Made by a program: the position numbers and the translations under genes. From assembly GCA_017656255.1 (NCBI GenBank), contig JACDOE010000001.1, positions 497,205 through 561,204 of the forward strand: a DNA stretch of 64,000 nt, given 5' to 3'. Positions 24,826 to 63,014 of this stretch are shown in pieces. Every line of letters begins with the position of its first letter. The first letter of the stretch is position 1. The DNA is from Bacillaceae bacterium (GTDB lineage Bacteria; Bacillota; Bacilli; JACDOE01). Below the pieces are notes generated by a model. That model had not been told where the DNA came from and did not search any database. It worked only from the letters and a program-made list of their open reading frames with translations.

Positions 24826-26907
24826 ATGACACATGAGAAAAATGAAGAACAAAAAAGGGCGAATCGGCTGATTGACGAAAAAAGCCCTTACCTGTTGCAA
24901 CATGCCTACAACCCCGTCAACTGGTACCCCTGGGATGAAGAAGCCTTTGAAAAAGCCAAAAAAGAACATAAACCGATCTTTCTGAGTATCGGATATTCCA
25001 CCTGTCACTGGTGCCACGTGATGGAGAGGGAATCCTTTGAAGATGAAGACGTGGCGAAGGTGTTAAACGACGGATTTGTATCGATTAAAGTAGACCGGGA
25101 AGAGAGACCGGATATCGACACCCTTTATATGTCGGTGTGCCAGGCCATGACCGGTCAGGGAGGGTGGCCGCTCACCATCATCATGACTCCGGACAAGAAA
25201 CCGTTTTTTGCCGGCACGTACTTTCCGAAGGAAGATAAATGGGGAAGACCCGGTTTGATTTCAGTCCTCAATCAAGCTCTGGAAAAATGGGAAAATGAAC
25301 ATGACAAAATTCAGCGAATCAGCGATAAAATTACCACCATTCTGGAGCCCCGTCTCTCGGCTTCTTCGAGGGGAGAACTGGATAAATCCAGCCTGAATCA
25401 GGCTTACGAACGTTATCTGCAAACCTTCGACGCCACTTATGGTGGATTCGGGCAGGCGCCTAAATTTCCCACACCTCACAACCTGATGTTTTTATTGCGC
25501 CACTGGAAGTTAACCGGAGAAGAAAAAGCGCTGGCCATGGTGGAAAAAACATTGGACGCCATGTACCGAGGAGGCATTTACGACCATATCGGTTACGGAT
25601 TTGCCCGATATTCCACAGATGAAAAATGGCTGGTGCCCCATTTTGAAAAAATGTTATATGATAATGCCCTGCTTGCTATCACCTATATCGAAGCCTATCA
25701 GGCTACCGGCAAGACTTTTTACGCCAGGGTTGCAGAAGAAATCTTTACCTATATTCTGCGGGATATGACCGACCCGGAAGGGGCGTTTTATTCGGCAGAA
25801 GATGCCGATTCAGAAGGAGTAGAGGGAAAATTCTATGTCTGGACACCGGATGAAGTAAAGCGTATTCTCGGTGAAACGGATGGCGAATTGTTCTGTGACT
25901 ATTACAACATCTCACCCGGCGGTAATTTTGAGGGTAAAAACATTCCCAATCTGATTCAACAGGATCTGGATACGTTTCATAAAAAAGCGGGAATAAACCG
26001 GGAAGAATGGGAAAACAAACTCTCCATACTGAGGCAGAAAATATTTGAACAGCGTGAAAAACGGGTTCATCCCCATAAGGACGATAAAATCTTGACTTCA
26101 TGGAATGGATTAATGATCGCAGCCCTGGCACGGGGAGGAAAAGTACTTGACCGCCCCGAATGGATTGATGCAGCTGCGAGGGCAAAAGATTTTATACTTG
26201 AACATTTGATTCGTGAAGATGGAAGACTATTGGCCCGTTACCGGGATGGAGAGGCTGCTTTTCCCGGCTACATTGACGACTATGCTTTTTTCATCTGGGG
26301 GCTTATCGAACTATATGAAGCCGGTTATCAGATTCGTGATTTACAGAATGCTGCTGAGTTGCAACGCAGGATGATCGATATATTCTGGGATTCAGAAAAT
26401 GGCGGTTTCTTCTTTTATGGCCGAGACAGTGAACAATTGTTTGCAAGACCAAAAGAGATCTATGACGGTGCCACACCATCCGGAAATTCCGTAGCCGCTC
26501 TCAATCTTCTCAAAATGTCCAGATTGACTGGTGATTCTGATTTTGAAAAGACGGCCGAAGAACAGATGAAGGCTTTTGCCGGTGATATCCAGGAACACCC
26601 TCCTGCCCATTCCTATTTTTTGATGGCTCTTCAATTTGCGTTATATCCGACACGAGAGATTGTGATCGCAGGTGAACGAAACCATCAAGATACACGGGAT
26701 ATGATCAGAGCCATTCATAAAATGTTTTTGCCCCAGGCGGTTACACTGCTGAATCCTGCGGGTGAGACGACAGATCTGACCGAGCTGGTTCCGTTTGTCA
26801 AGGACCAGACGCAGCGGGATGGAAAGGCGACAGCCTATGTATGTGAAAACTTTGCCTGTCAGTCTCCGGTCACTGAACTGGAACGTTTAAAAAAACAGTT
26901 AACCTGA
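24826..26907 (+). CDS. Thioredoxin-domain protein YyaL-like (DUF255 plus six-hairpin glycosidase-like/N-acylglucosamine 2-epimerase-like domain)
   Basis: Thioredoxin-like CHWCHVME motif in the first 70 aa, then a ~550-aa alpha/alpha-toroid region. Size and order match the YyaL/SPATA20 family. Confidence 0.75.
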
Positions 26908-26967
26908 TTTCCCATTTCCCGGGCAAGCGCAGAATCCGATAAAATACGGCAGTTTCGTCGATTTATG

Positions 26968-27005
26968 AAAAACCAGCTGTGTTCATGCTGGTTTTTCTTT
27001 TTTTA
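26968..27005 (+). terminator. Intrinsic terminator after the yyaL-like gene
   Basis: aaaccagc-tgtgttcat-gctggttt then ttcttttttt. Confidence 0.75.
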
Positions 27006-27252
27006 AAAAAGGATTTTTAACGAAAATGTCAAACTTTTAGTTATAGCCGGTATAAAGGGAGTGATGCTGTGGCTTTTTGCAGTCCAAAAGCTTGGATTTA
27101 CCCTATTGTCGGAACGTTATACATATATTTTAAACAGTTGTTTAAATCAGATGGTTTAAACAGAGAGCTGATACAGCACTGGATTCCATCCCGTTAAATA
27201 AGGCTCCTTTAAATGTAGCAGTTCATCACGAACCAAGGATGGAGGATATCAA

Positions 27253-27441
27253 ATGTTGTTGATGGGATTCATCAGTAACGAAGGGCTGATACTCCAGTTT
27301 TTCATTTTTGGAATCATTGGCCGTGCATTTTTAAAGGATTCTTCTATTGCTTTTGTATTTTGGACGGATCTCTTTTTTGTGGCATCCTTCATTTTACTAG
27401 TGGTCTGGATTTTTAAAAAAATTGCCGGTGGCAAAGATTAG
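27253..27441 (+). CDS. Small two-TM membrane protein (62 aa)
   Basis: GGAGG RBS 7 nt upstream. Strongly hydrophobic. Confidence 0.45.
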   Translation: MLLMGFISNEGLILQFFIFGIIGRAFLKDSSIAFVFWTDLFFVASFILLVVWIFKKIAGGKD

Positions 27442-27557
27442 CCGGGCTGGTTTTAAACGTTCTGTTAAAAGAAATCTTTACACCTTGATTATGATCACAT
27501 GGAACAGTACAATAATGAAGGACTTTTTTAACAACAGACTGAAATGAGGGATACCAG

Positions 27558-28004
27558 ATGAAGATATCCGCAAAAAAAAAGACATGGGGGTCTGTGTTAT
27601 TAATACTCACAGTTATCATCAGCGGGTGTTCCGGTGAACAAACTCCTGATGCAGTTCATAAGCCGTTGCCGGATTATCTGAGGGTTTCAACACAGGTGGA
27701 AGACATGTATCTTGCTGCAGCGAACCATGCTCAAGTGCTTGAATACATGCCCTGTTACTGCGGTTGTGAAGATGTTGGACATACATCCAATTATGACTGC
27801 TTTGTACGGCAAGCGGGTGCAGATGGTACCGTGACAGAATGGGATCCCATGGGAGCAGGCTGAGGGATCTGTCAGAATATAGCGCGTGACGCTATTCAGA
27901 TGTATGAAGACGGAGAAGATTTATCGGAAATAAGACGTTATATCGAAAAAACCTATGCCGTTCCGGGAAAGGGAACGCCTACACCGGAACCGCCAACCTC
28001 TTAA
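27558..28004 (+). CDS. PCYCGC-motif lipoprotein with an in-frame TGA (27861-27863): candidate selenoprotein (UGIC motif) or disrupted gene
   Basis: Lipobox LTVIISGC. MPCYCGCEDVGH motif. The reading frame continues uninterrupted for 46 codons beyond the TGA (GICQNIARDAIQMYEDGEDLSEIRRYIEKTY...) to a TAA at 28002-28004. An intrinsic terminator follows only after that second stop. The ORF track stops at 27863. Confidence 0.45.
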
Positions 28005-28010
28005 TCACCG

Positions 28011-28046
28011 AAAGGCGACGGAACTTTGATTTCCGTTGCCTTTTTA
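28011..28046 (+). terminator. Intrinsic terminator after the extended PCYCGC ORF
   Basis: ggcgacggaa-ctttgat-ttccgttgcc then ttttt. Confidence 0.7.
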
Positions 28047-28102
28047 ATGTAGTGCCAGTCCGGATATACTAAGGTTGCAATTTAAATGAAAAGGAGTATG
28101 AC

Positions 28103-28690
28103 ATGGACTGGACACTGGAACGTTCCATTACAATCACAGCAGTCGCTGCAAGTCTCGTGGGAAGTTATTTTATCCTAAGACTGGACTGGAAACGTTATGG
28201 ATTGTTGTTCGTATTAAGCGGAATTGTTGGCAATATCCTCTGTTATCTATTCGTTATTTTTGGTTTTTACTCCTATCCTTATCGGATGTTTCCGCAGTTT
28301 GTCAACATGCCGATAATGGCTGTATTGACCGTGTTTCCATTTTATGTTTTGTTGGGAGTCAGATACAGCCCGCGTGAGTGGGCCTGGAAAATTCCTTTTT
28401 ACTGGGTGTTTGTACATGTGGGGATGCTCCTGGAAACCATTGCTCAGCATTTTACCGGATTGATTCGTTACGAGTTTGCGTGGGACGTCTGGGATTCCTA
28501 TACCTGGTGGTGGATATATTTGCTTGCTTTTGAATGGATCGGAGGACTAATCATACCGGATAGGGTGAGGAAGCCATTAAAGGTGGAATCATTTCGATAC
28601 GGCAGAGGTCTATGGGCGACCCTCCATTTTATTCTCATCATCACCATCTTTCTTGCTGGATTTTATCTGGGATGGCTAATCAGGGGGTAA
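28103..28690 (+). CDS. CBO0543-family-like integral membrane protein
   Basis: ~195-aa Trp-rich polytopic membrane protein. No catalytic motif. Confidence 0.45.
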   Translation: MDWTLERSITITAVAASLVGSYFILRLDWKRYGLLFVLSGIVGNILCYLFVIFGFYSYPYRMFPQFVNMPIMAVLTVFPFYVLLGVRYSPREWAWKIPFYWVFVHVGMLLETIAQHFTGLIRYEFAWDVWDSYTWWWIYLLAFEWIGGLIIPDRVRKPLKVESFRYGRGLWATLHFILIITIFLAGFYLGWLIRG

Positions 28691-28752
28691 TGAGATTTTT
28701 TCTTGATATTCCCTGCTTTATTAAATGCATCAAGTCAAATACTTAAAGTATC

Positions 28753-29595
28753 ATGAGCGAAACGAATGTCACCCTTCATAAATTTTCCAGTATCAATGGT
28801 GTACGCCTACACTATGTTGAAAAAGGAGAACCTTATCAGGATCCGCTACTGTTTATCCATGGTCTGGGAGCCTATTCTTATACCTGGCGTAAAAACCTGG
28901 GTCCTCTCAGTCGGCAATTTCATGTGATTGCTTTGGACCTGAAGGGATTCGGGTTTTCGGATAAACCGAGGGAACAGGGGTATTCTCTCTCTTCTCATAC
29001 GGAGTTGGTTCGGTCATTCATTGACAATCTGGGTGTGGCCCCGGTAAATATTGCAGGCAATTCCATGGGAGGTGAAATTGCTTTACGCCTGGCCGGGAGG
29101 TATCCGGATCGTGTCAATAAACTGGTTCTGATCGCACCGTCCTGTTTTATCACGCGGTTGCCGTATCATGCCTATGCCCTTCGTTATCTTCCTTACAAAC
29201 GATTTATCCGAACATGGTTGCGACATAAATACCTGAACAGCCGCCGCTTGTTTGAAGCTGTGAAAAATGCTTTTTATGACCGGAAAAGGATCAGTGAACA
29301 AGAAATCAAAAACTTTCTGCTACCCGTATTTCTGGATGGTTTTGACGAGGCTTTTATCCGGGTGGTTCGAGAGTTTGATTTTGGCAGGGACAAACATTTG
29401 TATCAAAAGATCAAGCATCCGTCTTTGATTATCGCGGGAGAGAAAGATCATGTGATTCCGTTATCACATCTGGAACGTCTCTGCCGTGAACTGGCAAACT
29501 CAAAGATTATTCGGATGAGAGAAACCGGTCATTTTCCGCACGAGGAAAGACATGAACAGGTGAATCAACTCATTTCAGATTTTATTGGTAAATAG
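28753..29595 (+). CDS. Alpha/beta-fold hydrolase
   Basis: HGLGAYSYTW ... GNSMGG nucleophile elbow, with a C-terminal His. Confidence 0.75.
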   Translation: MSETNVTLHKFSSINGVRLHYVEKGEPYQDPLLFIHGLGAYSYTWRKNLGPLSRQFHVIALDLKGFGFSDKPREQGYSLSSHTELVRSFIDNLGVAPVNIAGNSMGGEIALRLAGRYPDRVNKLVLIAPSCFITRLPYHAYALRYLPYKRFIRTWLRHKYLNSRRLFEAVKNAFYDRKRISEQEIKNFLLPVFLDGFDEAFIRVVREFDFGRDKHLYQKIKHPSLIIAGEKDHVIPLSHLERLCRELANSKIIRMRETGHFPHEERHEQVNQLISDFIGK

Positions 29596-47590: not shown

Positions 47591-48631
47591 TTATTGATGC
47601 CGGTTTCGATAAAGCAGATAGATAAAGAAAGGTGCGCCGATTCCAGAGACAAAGATGCCGGCTGGAAGATCAAGCGGCAAAAAAGCTGTTCGCGCGACTA
47701 CATCAGCTAAAAGAACAATCATACCGCCAATCATGGCTGACACGGGAACCAGGCTTCCAAACGATCTGCCGATTAGTTTGCGTGCGATATGAGGGGCCAT
47801 TAACCCCACAAATCCAATACCGCCTGCAAAAGCTACGGCAGCCCCTGCCAGCGCAACACTGACAAACAATAATAAGAAACGATGCAGGGGAACGTTGACT
47901 CCCAGACCTGTTGCCACGTGATCTCCGAGCTGCTGGGCGTTAGCCGTTCGAACGAAAAGCAGGGTCAGCGGAATAAAAATAAGCACCCATGGCAACAACC
48001 CATAAACATCATCCCAGGTCGCCCCGTATACACTTCCGGTTAACCAGAGGTACGCCTGGGGAGTTGAATAACTGTTACCCAGCACAATCATCATGGTCGT
48101 GACGGCATTTAACGCCGCTGTTAAACCAATCCCCACCAGGACAAGCCGAATCGGCGTCACCCCTTTTTTCCAGGCCAAAAAATAGAGAAAGATCGATACA
48201 GTACCTGCGCCGGCAATGGCAACCGGCGGCAACCATTTGATACCGAATGAATCTGCAAAATACGTAATAAACATCACCGCTGCCACCGACGCCCCGCTTG
48301 TAATCCCAATGATGTCCGGTGAACCGAGGGGATTTCGGATTATCCCCTGCAGAATCAGACCTGAAACCCCCAGTGCGGCACCGGCAAGCCATGCAAGAGT
48401 CATACGCGGTAGCCTTAATGAATCTATGATAAATGTGTACTCACCGCTGCCTATTCCCAGTAGGTGTTTGATTACAGTGAACGGATGCAACATGGTACTT
48501 CCGATGGATAAACCGGCCAGAAATATAAAGGTGGATATAAATACCAGTACCGTAAAAACGGTTAACGTTTTCTTTTCAAACTGAAAAGAGACTGACCCCG
48601 ACCGGCTGCGATATACCGACATTTTGTTCAT
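47591..48631 (-). CDS. FecCD-family iron-siderophore ABC permease (second permease)
   Basis: The FecCD-type membrane domain begins at MNKMSVYRS. The 128-aa Arg-rich N-terminal extension in the ORF track overlaps the upstream permease and is not credible. 4-nt ATGA overlap with the upstream gene. Confidence 0.75.
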
Positions 48632-49641
48632 TCTCTGTTGAACCCCCTGCGCGCTATATAAATAAAGAACGGTGTTCCGATTATTGCGGTCATAACCCCG
48701 ATGGGAACCTCCTGTGGCATGATGACGAAGCGGGCTGCCACATCTGCGAGCAACAATAGACTGGCTCCGGTGAAGGCGCAAAAAGGGATAATCCAGCGGT
48801 AATCCATCCCGACAAGGCCTCGCACGATATGCGGAACCACTAAACCGATAAATCCGATCGATCCTCCGATCGCCACCGATCCACCGGCCAAAAACACAAT
48901 CACCACCGCCATCGATGTTTTGACCAGGATAATGCGCTGTCCCAGCCCTTTTGCGATGTCTTCGCCTGACGTGAGAATGTTGACCGGATGCGCCAGAATA
49001 AAAGCTGCAAGCCATCCCCCTGCCGTGAAAGGCAGAATCGGTTTGAGCATATCCATCGTTCTGCCTGCCACCGATCCGGCTAACCAGAACAGAGCCCCTT
49101 CCAGGTTTTGCTCACTGATCACCAAAAGCGCCTGGGTTAAAGAAACAAACAAAGCCGTTATGGCCGCCCCCGCTAAAACAATTTTAATCGGAGACAGCCC
49201 GTCTCTGCCGAGTGAACCCAAAAAATAAACCATGACTGCCGCAATCGCAGCTCCCAGAAAGGCGATCCACATATAATGCGTTAAAGATGTGACGGAAAAA
49301 AAGGCCATGGCTAAAACCACAAAAAACACAGCCCCGGCATTGACTCCGAAAATACTGGGAGATGCCAGCGGGTTTCGTGTTAACGCCTGCATTAAAGCGC
49401 CGGCGATAGCCAGGCTGGCTCCGATCACAGACGCAATGACCGCCCGGGAAAATCGGGTTGTTGTAACAATAAGATGCTCGGTTGAATCCGGATCAAAATG
49501 AATAAAGGCTTCTATAACGGTATGAAAAGCGATCGGCGTCTGGCCGAAGGCAATACTCAAAATAAAAGAAATGACAAAAAGACAGATAACCAGTATGATG
49601 CCGATCATTTTAGCAGGTGTACGAGATAAAAGATGTCTCAT
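48628..49641 (-). CDS. FecCD-family iron-siderophore ABC permease (first permease)
   Basis: 337 aa with 9-10 TM helices and a FecCD signature region. Confidence 0.8.
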   Translation of the reverse strand: MRHLLSRTPAKMIGIILVICLFVISFILSIAFGQTPIAFHTVIEAFIHFDPDSTEHLIVTTTRFSRAVIASVIGASLAIAGALMQALTRNPLASPSIFGVNAGAVFFVVLAMAFFSVTSLTHYMWIAFLGAAIAAVMVYFLGSLGRDGLSPIKIVLAGAAITALFVSLTQALLVISEQNLEGALFWLAGSVAGRTMDMLKPILPFTAGGWLAAFILAHPVNILTSGEDIAKGLGQRIILVKTSMAVVIVFLAGGSVAIGGSIGFIGLVVPHIVRGLVGMDYRWIIPFCAFTGASLLLLADVAARFVIMPQEVPIGVMTAIIGTPFFIYIARRGFNRE

Positions 49642-51054: not shown

Positions 51055-51648
51055 TTAACAACAGGAAGCTCTGGTATCACAACATGAACTCGGCTCTTTC
51101 TGTTGATGTTTTCGTCCCGCATTAAAAAATTGTCTTAAATTATCCGGAAGTACATAGGTATTTTGAGACGTTTTGGCATAATCCGGTGCCGGGTTATAAA
51201 TCTCTCTTAGAATAGCGTCCTTGATTAAAGCTTTTGGTGCCTCAGTATATTCCGACCCTTCAAATATCCAGACCCGGCAATCAACCTCAGTCCCTGTTAT
51301 AGTACCGCATGATTCACATTTGCTTTCCTTTGTTGTAAGAGCCAGGTCCCTGCCGTTGATGCGAATGGTAGGTGAACTTATGAAATGATATTGCTCAGCC
51401 TCTTCCTCATTTTCAATACGGACTTTATTCAGTAACACGTGGTAACCGATGGAATTTAAAAGATCAGAAACTTCCTCAATCGCTTCGTGAAGATTATGTT
51501 CGGTTCCTTTACACCTCGTACACACATCAAGATCAATATACAGGAAATCAATGTGCAGATCTTTGCTTTGCTCAACAGGCTGTTGATCCTTTCGGGAACT
51601 GCAACCGCAAGATGACGTTTGATTTTGATTCACTTTACAATTTGTCAT
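51055..51648 (-). CDS. DUF2703-domain protein with Cys-rich termini
   Basis: SSPTIRINGRDL motif characteristic of DUF2703. N- and C-terminal Cys clusters (SSCGCSS, SSCCDTRASCC). GGAGG RBS before MTNCKV. Confidence 0.5.
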   Translation of the reverse strand: MTNCKVNQNQTSSCGCSSRKDQQPVEQSKDLHIDFLYIDLDVCTRCKGTEHNLHEAIEEVSDLLNSIGYHVLLNKVRIENEEEAEQYHFISSPTIRINGRDLALTTKESKCESCGTITGTEVDCRVWIFEGSEYTEAPKALIKDAILREIYNPAPDYAKTSQNTYVLPDNLRQFFNAGRKHQQKEPSSCCDTRASCC

Positions 51649-51714
51649 GATAAAAACCTCCGCCTTTAATATTTTCACTAATACAGACGAAGGTTTTATC
51701 AAAAGGACGCAAAT

Positions 51715-52308
51715 TTACTCCGATTTATTTAAAATTTCCTGACAGGAACAGTTGCCCTTGTTGATATGGTAATCCAGTACATTCCCCAACAGATCCATTT
51801 CTAAATGACAACAGTCCAGCAATAACTGTTTTAATTTTTTTCTGGCGCGTTGCACCCTTGATTTTGCACCGGATATCGATATACCCAGTTTATTTGCCAT
51901 TTCTTTCTGTGTCAGATTTTTAAACTCTGTCAGTATGAGCGCTTCTCTATAAATCTCAGGGAGTTGTTGCATCAACTCTCTCAACCATCCTGCCACGATG
52001 GCATTCAAGTTGTCATCATCCACTTGATCGCATTTCTTAAAAACAGTGTGATCTTGTGATATGTCAACAGGATCCTCTTTTCTTTTATCCCGTTTGCGGT
52101 AATAATCTACGATTGTGTGACGTGTAATTTGATAGATCCAGGCTATTAATTTTTCTTCATCCTTTAATCCCGGTAAATAATGATGGATTTTTATAAACAC
52201 TTCTTGCAGAATATCGTCTGCTTCATGTTCGTTAGAAATTCTGGTATGAATAAACTGGCGAAGTGAATTTCGGTAAGCTTCCCATATGGCGTTCGTATCA
52301 AGCGTCAT
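51715..52308 (-). CDS. Sigma-70-family RNA polymerase sigma factor, SigZ-like, with Cys-rich C-terminal extension
   Basis: Region 2 (ILQEVFIKIHH, WIYQITRHTIVDYYRK) and region 4 (LTQKEMANKLGISISGAKSRVQRARKKL). C-terminus carries CCHLEMD...CSC. Confidence 0.65.
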   Translation of the reverse strand: MTLDTNAIWEAYRNSLRQFIHTRISNEHEADDILQEVFIKIHHYLPGLKDEEKLIAWIYQITRHTIVDYYRKRDKRKEDPVDISQDHTVFKKCDQVDDDNLNAIVAGWLRELMQQLPEIYREALILTEFKNLTQKEMANKLGISISGAKSRVQRARKKLKQLLLDCCHLEMDLLGNVLDYHINKGNCSCQEILNKSE

Positions 52309-59969: not shown

Positions 59970-60353
59970 TTATTTTGCTGCATCGATTGCCTGCATCAAA
60001 TTTTGCTCAACGCGCTCTGCGGTTTCACGCAGTGACGAATCATCCACCATGTTGATCAGTTGAGTAGGTTTCGGCATGCCGATGTAGTTTTGTCCGTCTT
60101 TTTCATAGACGACAATCTTACACGGAAGAAAATATCCCACCATGGAATTAGTCGTCAACACCTTGTTCGCTTCCCCCGGACTGCACACTTCAAGAACCCG
60201 GTAAGGTTGTTGAAAATCGAAACCTTTGTTTTGCAGAGTTGCCGTAATGTCAAAATCCCAGAGGATCCCGAACTTTCGCTCCTTCAATGTGGCTTCCAGT
60301 GCTTTGACCGCTTCATCCAGACTCTTGTCGGTCGTAACGGTATAATGAAACAT
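59970..60353 (-). CDS. DUF302-domain protein
   Basis: 127 aa with a DUF302-like fold pattern. Sits between the HesB-like ORF and the TusA gene. Confidence 0.55.
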   Translation of the reverse strand: MFHYTVTTDKSLDEAVKALEATLKERKFGILWDFDITATLQNKGFDFQQPYRVLEVCSPGEANKVLTTNSMVGYFLPCKIVVYEKDGQNYIGMPKPTQLINMVDDSSLRETAERVEQNLMQAIDAAK

Positions 60354-60477
60354 GTGATGACCTCCTATCTGAATCCGGCATAAGACTATAAGACAGTATT
60401 ATGAGTCAAACACCGGTTTTCGTTGTATAATGTAGAAAAGAAAGGACACCGGTTAAGATGCCCTTTCTTTTAACCTC

Positions 60478-60705
60478 TTAATTTTTGCGTACATAGAACT
60501 TGTATACGCCATCTTCTTCTTCGTGTTTAATCAATTCATGATTCGTTTGCTTGACCCAGCTTTGAAAATCTTTTACAGAACCTTTGTCCGTAGACAAAAG
60601 CTCCATTACCTGGCCGGGCTCCATGGAATCGATGGCTTTTTTAGCCTTCACAACAGGCATCGGACAGGAAAGTCCTTTTGCATCTACCGTTTGATCCACT
60701 TTCAT
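60478..60705 (-). CDS. TusA-like sulfurtransferase
   Basis: CPxP motif (GLSCPMPVVKAKKAI). 75 aa. Confidence 0.8.
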   Translation of the reverse strand: MKVDQTVDAKGLSCPMPVVKAKKAIDSMEPGQVMELLSTDKGSVKDFQSWVKQTNHELIKHEEEDGVYKFYVRKN

Positions 60706-60736
60706 CTAGATTCCCTCCCTGGATATGTTATTTATG

Positions 60737-61870
60737 TTATGCGGTGTGATGAACCGCGCAACGATTAGGTCCGATTTCCAGCTCAACCGCTTCTTCGCTG
60801 GAAGGAGTCAATTCACCACGGTTAATGCCAACGATTTTTTCAAAGTTCGGCGGTTTAACCGAAGATGCAGATTTTTCAACTTCTGCCAGGAAAGCATCTT
60901 TATCCGTGGTTTGCATAATTTCATTGTTTTTACGGATGTTACCCAGTGTTTCCCCAACGATACCGTTGTCTGCCATCTCAGACTTGATGTCCGCAAAGTG
61001 AGCCGGCAATACCAGTACATCATCGGCAATTTCAGCAATTTTTTCAAATACGGTGTTGTACAGATCCTGAGCCCACTCCTTAACTTTACCACCGAGGTCC
61101 GGACGTCCCAGTCCGCCTACGAAAATGGTGTCTCCGGAAAGCAGGTACTTGTCATTGATGAAGAAAGATACACTACCCGGCGTGTGTCCCGGTGTTTTCA
61201 CAGCGAGCACTTCTACTTTGACATTGTTAAACTTGATTTCATCGTAATCTTCAAGTGCTTCGTGATCATAGTTGGCCCCTTCACTCTTCATCAGGTAGTA
61301 TTTAGCTCCGGTTTTTTCTACCAGGTCACGGGCACCGGAAATGTGGTCGGCATGAAGGTGAGAGTCCAAAATGTGTGTAATTTTGGCTCCGTCTTTTTCA
61401 GCAAGTTGAATGTATTCATCAACGTGACGAGCAGGGTCTAAGACAAGTGCTTCCCCATCGGATACAACCACATAGGACAGGCACCCTTTGGAAACACGGT
61501 TGACCTGATACAGTTTGAAGTTATCTTCTTCAACAACCGGAGTGGCATAATAGTACTGGGACCATTCTTTCATGCCGCCTTGCAGGTAGGAAGCATCAAG
61601 CCCCGCTTCTACCAGCTGATCAGCGACGAATTTGGAAGATCCTTCCTTGGCACAGACCACCAGAATCGGTTTATCTTTCGGCAGTTTATCGAGATGTGCC
61701 TCAGTTCCGTCAAGGAAATCGAAATAAGGGATATTAAGGCTTGTTACCGTTTTCCCTTCAATTTTCCAGTCATTGTACTCCTCTTCATTCCGAACATCGA
61801 GAATGAAGACGTCTTTTTTGGCCAGGATGTCCTTAAACACCTGATCGGAAGTCACCATTTTTGCACTCAT
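60737..61870 (-). CDS. Rhodanese-like domain fused to MBL-fold persulfide dioxygenase-type hydrolase (YrkH/CstB-like)
   Basis: N-terminal rhodanese-like fold (FILDVRNEEEY). C-terminal MBL motifs (HLHADHISG, TPGHTPGS). Gene order matches B. subtilis yrkEFHI and S. aureus cst clusters. Confidence 0.7.
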   Translation of the reverse strand: MSAKMVTSDQVFKDILAKKDVFILDVRNEEEYNDWKIEGKTVTSLNIPYFDFLDGTEAHLDKLPKDKPILVVCAKEGSSKFVADQLVEAGLDASYLQGGMKEWSQYYYATPVVEEDNFKLYQVNRVSKGCLSYVVVSDGEALVLDPARHVDEYIQLAEKDGAKITHILDSHLHADHISGARDLVEKTGAKYYLMKSEGANYDHEALEDYDEIKFNNVKVEVLAVKTPGHTPGSVSFFINDKYLLSGDTIFVGGLGRPDLGGKVKEWAQDLYNTVFEKIAEIADDVLVLPAHFADIKSEMADNGIVGETLGNIRKNNEIMQTTDKDAFLAEVEKSASSVKPPNFEKIVGINRGELTPSSEEAVELEIGPNRCAVHHTA

Positions 61871-61956
61871 TTGAACCTCTCCTTTTCTCTATAAAGATTT
61901 AACCTTTTTATCCACGATTCTTTTGTTCTATTCTTTTATTCCATGACATCAGACTT

Positions 61957-62352
61957 TTAGAAAGTAACGGTTACGTCGGCATCATAGGCAAAATCAAGGA
62001 AAGTAGCGGCTCCGCCGACTTCAATACCGTCTACAAAATCTTCCTTCTCCAGTCCCATAACATCCATGGTCATCTGGCAGGCGATGAATTTCACGCCGGA
62101 TTCTTTTGCAACTTCAAGAAGTTCACTGATGCTGGGCACCCCTGCATTTTTAAATCCTTCCATGAAGTGTTCTTTACCAGGTCCCATGCTTAACTGCTTA
62201 TGTGCTTCTTTATGAATGATATTCAGTCCTTCGAAAGTGAAGAAGATCTCTACTTCTGCATCGGTTGCTGCCGCAGCAGTTCCGATATTCAATGCTTTAT
62301 AAGCGTCATCCAATCCACCAGAGCTTGCAATAATTGCTACTTTTTTTGCCAT
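61957..62352 (-). CDS. DsrE/DsrF-like sulfur-relay family protein (YrkE-like)
   Basis: KVAIIASSGGLD...FIACQMTMD pattern of DsrE-like proteins. AAGGAGAGG RBS before MAKKV. Confidence 0.65.
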   Translation of the reverse strand: MAKKVAIIASSGGLDDAYKALNIGTAAAATDAEVEIFFTFEGLNIIHKEAHKQLSMGPGKEHFMEGFKNAGVPSISELLEVAKESGVKFIACQMTMDVMGLEKEDFVDGIEVGGAATFLDFAYDADVTVTF

Positions 62353-62435
62353 TTCTTTACCTCTCCTTTTTATTTTAATCATTTTTTTAAAATACGTAAA
62401 CAGGTTAGGGTATAAAATTGTTAAAAAATTTTCAT

Positions 62436-63014
62436 TTATTTTTCAATTGGCCCATTCCACTGGCTCATTCCGGGCAACACATTTTTCAAGTTCTTAAACC
62501 CTTTATCGGACAGTAACTGGCAGGCCATATCACTGCGGTTCCCGGTACGGCAAACCACATAGATTTCTTTATCTTTATCCAGTTCATCTATATGCTGTTC
62601 AAGTTCGCCGAATGAATAGTTAACGGCTCCGGGAATGTGACCGAAGGCATATTCTGCTTCTTCTCTGACATCAAGGATAATCGCATTCGGATCATCAATT
62701 TTGGCTTGTAGTTCATCATTGGAAATGGTGTGCGGATATTTCTTTTCTTCTTTCACTTCATCCGGGTTTGACTTGCGGATGTAGTGCTTCAGCACACCCT
62801 CTTCATCCAGGCTGCCCAGGTAATCATGCCCGGTGCTGTTTGCCCAGCCTTTGATATCAGCCAGTGACCCTTTATCAGTCGCGATAACCTCCAGAACCTG
62901 ACCCGGTTCCAGGTTTTCCATCGCCTTTTTGGTTTTTACGACAGGCATCGGGCAGGACAATCCCTGGCAATCCAATGTTTCGTCAGCTTTAATCTGGTTG
63001 GTAATGTTGGACAT
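62436..63014 (-). CDS. TusA-rhodanese fusion sulfurtransferase (YrkF-like)
   Basis: N-terminal CPxP (GLSCPMPVVKTKKAM). C-terminal rhodanese with active-site loop CRTGNRS. Confidence 0.8.
   Translation of the reverse strand: MSNITNQIKADETLDCQGLSCPMPVVKTKKAMENLEPGQVLEVIATDKGSLADIKGWANSTGHDYLGSLDEEGVLKHYIRKSNPDEVKEEKKYPHTISNDELQAKIDDPNAIILDVREEAEYAFGHIPGAVNYSFGELEQHIDELDKDKEIYVVCRTGNRSDMACQLLSDKGFKNLKNVLPGMSQWNGPIEK

What the first reader, a model, noticed from the sequence alone, without database searches (positions are those of the whole stretch)
27558..28004. PCYCGC-motif lipoprotein interrupted by a single UGA followed by Gly-Ile-Cys (a UxxC redox motif), with 46 further in-frame codons and the terminator only after the second stop
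The annotated ORF ends at the TGA at 27861-27863 (...TEWDPMGAG*). The same frame stays open for 46 more codons (GICQNIARDAIQMYEDGEDLSEIRRYIEKTYAVPGKGTPTPEPPTS) to a TAA at 28002. A strong intrinsic terminator (28011-28046) follows that second stop, not the first. Read through as Sec, the protein carries U-G-I-C, the selenium analogue of a CxxC redox/metal site, directly after the Cys/His-rich PCYCGC region. A 6-bp hairpin (atagcg-cgtga-cgctat) lies ~18 nt downstream of the UGA. A PCYCGC-family selenoprotein would be novel if real. The gene lies downstream of the ba3 oxidase and a thioredoxin-domain protein, fitting a redox or copper-handling role.
Basis: partly seen in the sequence, partly recalled or inferred. 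Interest (0 to 1): 0.72.

Follow-up and report, generated by a model that had tools for sequence, protein, structure and literature searches.

The report
Known-family selenoprotein gene, annotated as truncated
The UGA inside this small lipoprotein gene is very probably read as selenocysteine, but selenium-containing members of this protein family (PF13798, UxxC motif) are already catalogued, so this is a mis-annotated new member and not a new kind of selenoprotein.

Summary
The ORF 27558-27863 ends at TGA, and the frame stays open for 46 more codons to TAA at 28002-28004. The only terminator follows that second stop.

The TGA aligns with the invariant first Cys of a CxxC motif in the PCYCGC family (PF13798). 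About 100 independent homologues carry TGA at exactly this codon, with a conserved reading frame after it. These include a second Bacillaceae-like genome, Gemmatimonadota MAGs and many soil and marine contigs. Among the 149 best cluster representatives, 81 stop right before this column.

A hairpin 15 nt after the UGA (6-bp stem, loop CGUGA) fits the published bacterial SECIS model. It shows compensatory changes at codon wobble positions in Sec forms but not in Cys forms that encode the same peptide.

Selenocysteine decoding is therefore strongly supported (about 0.85). I could not check for selA, selB, selC or selD in the source genome.

The novelty claim fails. Two reviews list a PF13798 UxxC selenoprotein (OS_HP4), and NCBIfam has NF041379 "CYCXC family (seleno)protein". 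This protein scores below that model's cut-off, so it belongs to a sister subfamily. Its function is still unknown, and the link to oxidase or copper genes is not family-wide.

The parts
27485..27513 (+). Sigma-70-like promoter candidate (TTGATT, 17 nt spacer, TACAAT)
   Evidence: It is the only promoter-like site in 26800-28800. This is a consensus match only.
27546..27550 (+). Shine-Dalgarno sequence GAGGG, 7 nt before the ATG
   Evidence: Read directly from the sequence.
27558..27629 (+). Lipoprotein signal peptide ending in the lipobox I-S-G-C (Cys24)
   Evidence: Translation MKISAKKKTWGSVLLILTVIISGC. Homologues share the G-C-S lipobox consensus. No dedicated predictor was run.
27558..27860 (+). 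First part of the coding sequence (residues 1-101), with the PCYCGC motif at 27750-27767
   Evidence: PF13798 match. C66, C68, G69, C70, H75 and C81 are invariant in alignments A1 and A2.
27861..27863 (+). In-frame UGA, predicted selenocysteine codon (residue 102, first position of U-G-I-C)
   Evidence: It aligns with a Cys that is invariant in all 65 full-length Cys homologues of A2. The same codon is TGA in 96 distinct related sequences.
27864..28004 (+). Second part of the coding sequence (46 codons) plus the TAA stop
   Evidence: It matches PF13798 profile positions 107-151. Against the orthologue L003, 36 of 46 residues are identical, and differences by codon position are 10/6/23.
27867..27901 (+). 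SECIS-like element: lower stem 27867-27871 with 27897-27901, upper stem 27879-27884 with 27890-27895, apical loop CGUGA at 27885-27889
   Evidence: Fold of -8.7 kcal/mol. It fits the published bSECIS constraints. Covariation is seen across 96 Sec forms and is absent from Cys forms.
28010..28049 (+). Intrinsic terminator after the second stop
   Evidence: 14-bp stem, dG -20.1 kcal/mol, z = -3.98.

Best explanation
The gene 27558-28004 encodes one 148-residue, membrane-anchored, extracytoplasmic lipoprotein of the PCYCGC family (PF13798). The UGA at 27861-27863 is recoded to selenocysteine by SelB bound to Sec-tRNA(Sec), directed by a SECIS hairpin that lies inside the coding sequence 15 nt downstream. 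The selenocysteine replaces the first, nucleophilic Cys of a CxxC motif. In a high-confidence model of a Cys homologue, that motif sits at the N-terminus of an alpha-helix. What is shown: the Sec/Cys pairing, conservation of the downstream frame, and covariation in the hairpin. What is inferred: that the protein is a selenol/thiol redox or soft-metal-binding protein on the outer face of the membrane. Its substrate is unknown.
For: (1) The UGA column is an invariant Cys in 65 full-length homologues, G-C-G-I-C.
(2) The TGA recurs independently. Of the 149 best 50%-identity cluster representatives, 81 end exactly two residues after [HM][GA], that is, right before this column, and 50 carry CxxC there. 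At the DNA level, TGA followed by xxC and a conserved open frame is seen in L001, L003, six MAG contigs (five labelled Gemmatimonadota, one an unclassified bacterium) and about 90 metagenome contigs.
(3) Against the orthologue in GCA_041686735.1 (L003), the post-UGA peptide is 78% identical while the pre-UGA part is 43% identical. There are 15 synonymous and 10 non-synonymous codon differences and an excess of third-position changes. Synteny with the DsbH-like thioredoxin gene is kept.
(4) SECIS: 6-bp upper stem, 5-nt loop CGUGA with G at position 2, 21 nt between UGA and loop, MFE -8.7 kcal/mol. All published bSECIS constraints are met.
(5) Among sequences encoding the same [IV]AR[DE]A peptide, the wobble-position pair 24-30 is Watson-Crick in 94 of 95 Sec forms against 1 of 17 Cys forms (p = 9e-13). 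Pair 21-33 is Watson-Crick in 95 of 95 against 7 of 17 (p = 5e-8). Pair 24-30 switches G-C to C-G in 25 sequences. The covariation score is 0.202 against 0.133 +/- 0.006 in shuffles (0 of 500 reach it) and at most 0.075 for slid partners. The Kyrpidia Cys form with the identical IARDAV peptide breaks both wobble pairs.
(6) The family is already recognised as containing UxxC selenoproteins.
(7) The only terminator follows the second stop.
Against: Sec machinery was not demonstrated for the source genome. The window has no tRNA and no SelA, SelB or SelD homologue, and neither does the further 10 kb to the right. A SelA search of the protein collection did not reach this MAG. The cultured Bacillaceae, Exiguobacterium and Sporosarcina homologues retrieved are all Cys forms. 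The hairpin is no more stable than shuffled sequence (z = -0.13; z = 0.74), so stability alone proves nothing. The metagenome sequences are not phylogenetically independent, and the scan pattern pre-selected the [IV]AR[DE]A motif. There is no protein-level evidence of selenium.
Confidence: 0.85

Rival explanations
1. Genuine termination. The organism lacks, or does not use, Sec machinery for this gene. It makes a 101-residue truncated lipoprotein from a gene that was acquired from, or descends from, a Sec-using lineage.
For: Sec machinery could not be found or excluded. GenBank annotates the gene as an 89-residue hypothetical protein ending at this TGA. TGA is a normal stop in this genome.
Against: Two Bacillaceae-like genomes that have diverged to 43% identity upstream both keep the TGA. 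They also keep a post-TGA frame that is 78% identical with mostly synonymous changes, and 37 of 38 identical bases across the hairpin. Untranslated DNA would not keep that pattern. The truncated product would lose two of the invariant Cys residues and a third of the domain.
Confidence: 0.08
2. Recent nonsense mutation (TGY to TGA) that produced a pseudogene.
For: One transversion converts a Cys codon to TGA. This is a single MAG.
Against: The same codon is TGA in 96 distinct sequences from very different lineages and in 81 of 149 cluster representatives. The adjacent hairpin is co-adapted. There are no other disruptions, and the downstream frame is intact through to a terminator.
Confidence: 0.04
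3. Sequencing or assembly error at one base.
For: The source is a metagenome-assembled genome.
Against: An independent Logan assembly of SRR13776092 is identical over 20.3 kb, although it may rest on the same reads. The orthologue in GCA_041686735.1 has the same TGA.
Confidence: 0.02

Closest known systems
CYCXC family (seleno)protein, OS_HP4 (NCBIfam NF041379; listed under PF13798 with a UxxC motif in PMC13188914 and as OS_HP4 in PMC9312934)
   Same: Same Pfam family. The match to the model spans both the C-Y-C-x-C motif and the UxxC region (residues 43-133 on profile positions 10-89 of 90). The only CxxC in the conserved core is the column that holds the UGA here, so the Sec position is inferred to be the same.
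   Different: It scores 65.1 bits against a curated cut-off of 90, so it is not a member of that equivalog. The same holds for nine other forms tested, eight Sec and one Cys, at 60-79 bits. The match puts 91 residues of this protein onto 80 positions of a 90-position model, so this protein is longer in the core. It also carries an N-terminal lipoprotein signal and a C-terminal TPTPEPP tail. GenBank annotates it as a truncated hypothetical protein.
Cys-containing PCYCGC motif-containing (lipo)proteins of Bacillales, for example the Parageobacillus thermoglucosidasius AOT13_14730 family (PMC13068155), Exiguobacterium, Sporosarcina and Kyrpidia
   Same: Same domain, same lipobox and same set of conserved Cys and His residues, at 33-56% identity.
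   Different: These have TGY (Cys) at the site. They lack the co-adapted hairpin, and mostly carry IAAES or IAVKS where the Sec forms have IAR[DE]A. Nearly all have His where this protein has Met98.
CcmH, periplasmic thiol:disulfide oxidoreductase of cytochrome c maturation (PDB 2hl7, 2kw0)
   Different: The scores are marginal and Foldseek finds nothing. In the profile alignment the matched CcmH segment begins at chain residue 41, right at the second Cys of this family's CxxC. From memory, CcmH's own CxxC lies about 13-16 residues before that segment, so the active sites would not superpose; I did not check this. The N-terminal half with CYCGC has no counterpart. This is a lead, not membership.

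Membership tests
Bacterial selenoprotein gene (SelB/SECIS-dependent UGA recoding) | In-frame UGA aligned with a conserved Cys in homologues | tested here: met
   The column is an invariant Cys in 65 full-length homologues.
Bacterial selenoprotein gene (SelB/SECIS-dependent UGA recoding) | Reading frame continues after the UGA and is conserved as protein | tested here: met
   46 codons match PF13798 profile positions 107-151. Identity to L003 is 78%, with an excess of third-position changes.
Bacterial selenoprotein gene (SelB/SECIS-dependent UGA recoding) | bSECIS: 3-9 nt loop, 4-16 bp upper stem, G in the first two loop positions, 16-37 nt from UGA to loop, MFE <= -7.5 kcal/mol (PMC13188914) | tested here: met
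   Loop CGUGA (5 nt), 6-bp stem, 21-nt spacing, -8.7 kcal/mol. Covariation is specific to Sec forms.
Bacterial selenoprotein gene (SelB/SECIS-dependent UGA recoding) | selA, selB, selC (tRNA-Sec) and selD in the same genome | not testable with these tools
   They are absent from the 64-kb window and from 10 kb beyond it. The rest of the 1.2-Mb contig and the MAG could not be reached. The SelA search listed only Lactobacillales and Clostridia.
Bacterial selenoprotein gene (SelB/SECIS-dependent UGA recoding) | Selenium in the protein (75Se labelling or mass spectrometry) | not testable with these tools
   This needs an experiment.
Pfam PF13798 (PCYCGC) | Score above the gathering threshold (25 bits) with the conserved Cys/His pattern | tested here: met
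   111 bits read through and 65.1 bits truncated. C66, C68, G69, C70, H75, C81 and C105 are present.
NCBIfam NF041379 OS_HP4_CYCXC (equivalog) | Whole-protein score at or above the curated cut-off of 90 bits | tested here: not met
   65.1 bits. Relatives score 60.6-78.9 bits.
Bacterial lipoprotein | Signal peptide with lipobox [LVI][ASTVI][GAS]C | tested here: met
   MKISAKKK-TWGSVLLILTVI-ISGC by inspection. The consensus G-C-S is found in homologues. No SignalP or LipoP was run.
CcmH-like thiol:disulfide oxidoreductase | Shared fold and a superposable CxxC active site | tested here: inconclusive

The most novel reading that the evidence does not exclude
The Sec102/Met98 pair, where the Cys forms have Cys/His, forms a selenolate-thioether site for a soft metal, most plausibly Cu(I). 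The lipoprotein would then be a selenium-based extracytoplasmic metallochaperone or reductase serving respiratory oxidase maturation in this lineage. The His-to-Met switch is almost confined to Sec forms: 31 of 102 Sec forms against 1 of 62 Cys forms. The gene sits beside a ba3 oxidase here, and beside COX, CopCD, YcnI and CtaM in Kyrpidia.
Probability: 0.1. Interest if true: 0.7.

Novelty: new member of a known kind. Interest (0 to 1): 0.3.

Why it matters
In practice this is an annotation correction. H0Z33_02785 (MBO8170798.1) and many PF13798 entries in public databases are cut off at a selenocysteine codon, and the curated NCBIfam selenoprotein model does not capture these longer forms. 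The case also shows clearly how a SECIS element inside a coding region fixes both codon choice (GCS-CGK-GAS-GCG) and the peptide motif ([IV]AR[DE]A). It suggests that some aerobic Bacillaceae-like bacteria export a selenoprotein to the outer face of the membrane. It does not reveal a new selenoprotein family or a new mechanism.

Tried and rejected
- Rfam gave no hit at gathering thresholds over the whole window, and only noise at E <= 10 around the site. No curated family covers this SECIS.
- Hairpin stability against shuffles was not significant, so I relied on covariation instead.
- Foldseek against the PDB found nothing, and the afdb50 library was unavailable.
- Sec machinery:
  - tblastn with E. 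coli and Ligilactobacillus SelA, SelB and SelD against the window and all loci was negative.
  - The protein-collection search with Ligilactobacillus SelA returned 8000 candidates. The 120 listed are Lactobacillales and Clostridia, none from this MAG.
  - Walking 10 kb beyond the right end showed only sulfur-transfer genes, and the left-end look-up failed.
- The genome-collection scan did not contain the source genome.
- Look-ups of the truncated homologues from Neobacillus piezotolerans and Paludifilum halophilum found no record.
- Neighbour enrichment over 84 dereplicated loci showed no dominant partner family. BLAST for oxidase, copper and DsbH neighbours found them in only 1 of 174 loci each, so I rejected the oxidase/copper context as a family-wide trait.
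- No other split-by-TGA coding candidate was found in the window.
- OS_HP4 is not described in the main text of either cited primary paper, PMC1976440 or PMC2398784. It appears only in the review tables and in NCBIfam.

Full report
**Observation.** The ORF starting at ATG 27558 is preceded by a GAGGG Shine-Dalgarno sequence 7 nt upstream. It runs to TGA at 27861-27863, and the same frame continues for 46 codons to TAA at 28002-28004. A 14-bp terminator stem at 28010-28044 (dG -20.1 kcal/mol, z = -3.98) follows the second stop. No terminator-like site lies between the two stops. With the TGA read through, Pfam PF13798 (PCYCGC) matches profile positions 40-151 of 153 at 111 bits. The truncated ORF matches only positions 40-106 at 65 bits. 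The stop therefore cuts a domain in two. TGA is an ordinary stop elsewhere in the window, ending 11 of 53 long ORFs, so this is not a genome with a reassigned UGA. GenBank annotates the gene as MBO8170798.1, hypothetical protein H0Z33_02785, 89 residues, from a 'Bacillaceae bacterium' MAG on a 1.2-Mb contig. An independent Logan assembly of run SRR13776092 is identical to the window over 20,306 bp, TGA included.

**Sec/Cys pairing.** In an alignment with 50 homologues, the TGA falls on the first Cys of a G-C-G-I-C motif. That Cys is invariant in all 65 full-length Cys homologues aligned later. One homologue, P0031 at 51% identity, stops at exactly this column. Its DNA (L001) reads ...DAMGIS-TGA-GAC-ATC-TGC..., followed by a conserved frame down to a TAA.

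An exhaustive HMMER search of 1.84 billion cluster representatives, using only the first 101 residues as query, showed that this is widespread. Of the 149 best hits retrieved, 81 end exactly two residues after the conserved [HM][GA], that is, immediately before the Cys column. Another 50 carry CxxC there.

DNA confirms TGA-xx-TGY with a conserved continuation in several places:
- a second genome, GCA_041686735.1 (L003);
- six MAG contigs, five labelled Gemmatimonadota and one an unclassified bacterium;
- about 90 soil, sediment and marine metagenome contigs.

Truncated versions also occur in the cultured isolates Neobacillus piezotolerans and Paludifilum halophilum. I could not fetch their DNA.

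**Is the downstream part translated in this lineage?** L003 is the closest relative. It keeps the local gene order: a DsbH-like thioredoxin protein, a small ORF, then the PCYCGC gene, with the same histidine kinase and sigma-54 regulator pair downstream (directly adjacent in L003, about 4 kb further on in the window). Upstream of the UGA the two proteins are 43% identical. Downstream they are 78% identical (36 of 46 residues). Codon differences downstream are 15 synonymous and 10 non-synonymous, and differences by codon position are 10/6/23. That is the signature of purifying selection on a translated sequence. The 38 nt starting at the UGA differ at a single synonymous site.

**SECIS.** Positions are counted with the U of UGA as 1. 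The window has an upper stem at 19-24 paired with 30-35 (AUAGCG/CGCUAU), an apical loop CGUGA at 25-29, and a 5-bp lower stem at 7-11 paired with 37-41. The MFE is -8.7 kcal/mol. This meets every constraint of the published bacterial SECIS model: a 3-9 nt loop, a 4-16 bp stem, G in the first two loop positions, 16-37 nt between UGA and loop, and MFE <= -7.5 kcal/mol (PMC13188914). The fold is no more stable than shuffled sequence, so the case rests on comparison.

The two central pairs (22-32 and 23-31) are forced by the Ala-x-x-Ala codons and carry no information. The informative pairs lie at codon wobble positions. I compared distinct sequences that all encode [IV]AR[DE]A:

| Feature | Sec forms | Cys forms | Fisher p |
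|---|---|---|---|
| Pair 24-30 Watson-Crick | 94 of 95 | 1 of 17 | 9e-13 |
| Pair 21-33 Watson-Crick | 95 of 95 | 7 of 17 | 5e-8 |
| Loop sequence | CGUGA 84, CGGGA 11 | all four CGN Arg codons used | not tested |

On the 96-sequence alignment, pair 24-30 is G-C in 70 sequences and C-G in 25. Pair 21-33 is C-G in 90, A-U in 5 and U-A in 1. The upper helix is 97.6% paired. The covariation score is 0.202 against 0.133 +/- 0.006 in shuffles (0 of 500 reach it) and at most 0.075 when partners are slid. The Kyrpidia Cys form encodes the identical IARDAV peptide yet breaks both wobble pairs.

Two caveats apply. The metagenome sequences are related to each other, and the scan pattern required the peptide motif. 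The pattern did not constrain the tested positions.

**What could not be shown.** The window contains no tRNA gene and no SelA, SelB or SelD homologue. Pfam annotation of essentially all its ORFs shows none either. The 10 kb beyond the right end also has none. The source genome is not in the genome collection, and a SelA search of the protein collection did not reach it. The conserved TGA, frame and hairpin in two diverged Bacillaceae-like genomes make absence unlikely.

The protein has a lipobox (ISGC, Cys24) and no twin-arginine motif, so it is probably anchored on the outer face of the membrane. Six Cys/Sec positions plus His75 and His/Met98 are conserved. That pattern fits either a redox relay or a metal site.

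**Context.** In this genome the gene follows a ba3 oxidase operon and a DsbH-like thioredoxin protein. In Kyrpidia it lies next to COX1, COX2, CopCD, YcnI and CtaM. This does not generalise. Among 174 related loci, homologues of COX1, COX2 and DsbH each occur near the gene in just one locus. The commonest immediate neighbours are histidine kinases, response regulators and short-chain dehydrogenases.

**Comparison with what is known.** The family is already on record as a selenoprotein family. [quoted passage not shown] The 2022 review lists OS_HP4 with UxxC (PMC9312934). NCBIfam has the equivalog NF041379, 'CYCXC family (seleno)protein'. The conserved core holds only one CxxC, so the catalogued UxxC must be this column. 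That step is an inference. The window protein scores 65.1 bits against NF041379's cut-off of 90. L001, L003, Kyrpidia and seven further metagenome forms score 60-79 bits. These longer, often lipoprotein, forms therefore make up sister subfamilies that the curated selenoprotein model does not capture, which explains the truncated annotations in GenBank.

**Verdict.** Selenocysteine decoding is the best explanation, at about 0.85. The claim of novelty is not upheld: this is a new, mis-annotated member of a known selenoprotein family, and its biochemical function is unknown. Interest is modest, at 0.3.

Noticed in passing
window 27849-27851 (Met98); related loci L001-L176: The nearly invariant His four residues before the Cys/Sec column is Met in 31 of 102 DNA-verified Sec forms but in only 1 of 62 Cys forms (p = 1e-6). 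Among cluster representatives the counts are 23 of 81 against 2 of 50. There is no phylogenetic correction. The pattern suggests the two residues act together, perhaps as ligands for a soft metal.
   Followed up: partly
window 27879-27893; alignment A4: The peptide motif [IV]AR[DE]A after UxxC is present in 95 of 96 Sec forms, although most of these came from a scan that required the motif. All nine Sec forms found without that requirement also carry IAR[DE]A or VARVA, whereas the cultured Bacillales Cys forms mostly have IAAES or IAVKS. The SECIS hairpin (GCS-CGK-GAS-GCG) appears to dictate the protein sequence.
   Followed up: partly
window 59970-63014 (- strand) and L179 4951-9974: There are two tandem copies of a sulfur-transfer cluster: TusA-rhodanese, DsrE-like, rhodanese-metallo-beta-lactamase fusion and TusA. 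The window copy also has DUF302. The second copy lies just beyond the window's right end and adds a thioredoxin, two further rhodanese genes and a CsoR-type repressor, next to an integrase.
   Followed up: no
protein P0124: A 1379-residue protein matches the region around the PCYCGC motif (query residues 50-79) in nine separate stretches. It looks like a large repeat protein built from CYCGC-like units.
   Followed up: no
RDU37656.1 and OYD07445.1: Cultured isolates Neobacillus piezotolerans and Paludifilum halophilum carry PCYCGC proteins of 107 and 100 residues that end exactly before the Cys/Sec column. They are candidate culturable hosts for testing Sec insertion. Their DNA was not retrieved.
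   Followed up: partly
window 51058-52308 (- strand): A DUF2703 protein is encoded next to an ECF sigma factor, downstream of a FecCD permease (47591-49015, with an N-terminal extension of about 160 residues) and a periplasmic binding protein.
   Followed up: no
window 27253-27441 and 28103-28690: Two hydrophobic ORFs without any Pfam match flank the selenoprotein gene, one of 62 residues and one of 195 residues. L003 also has a small ORF (76 residues) between the DsbH-like gene and the PCYCGC gene. Homology between the two small ORFs was not established (no tblastn hit).
   Followed up: partly
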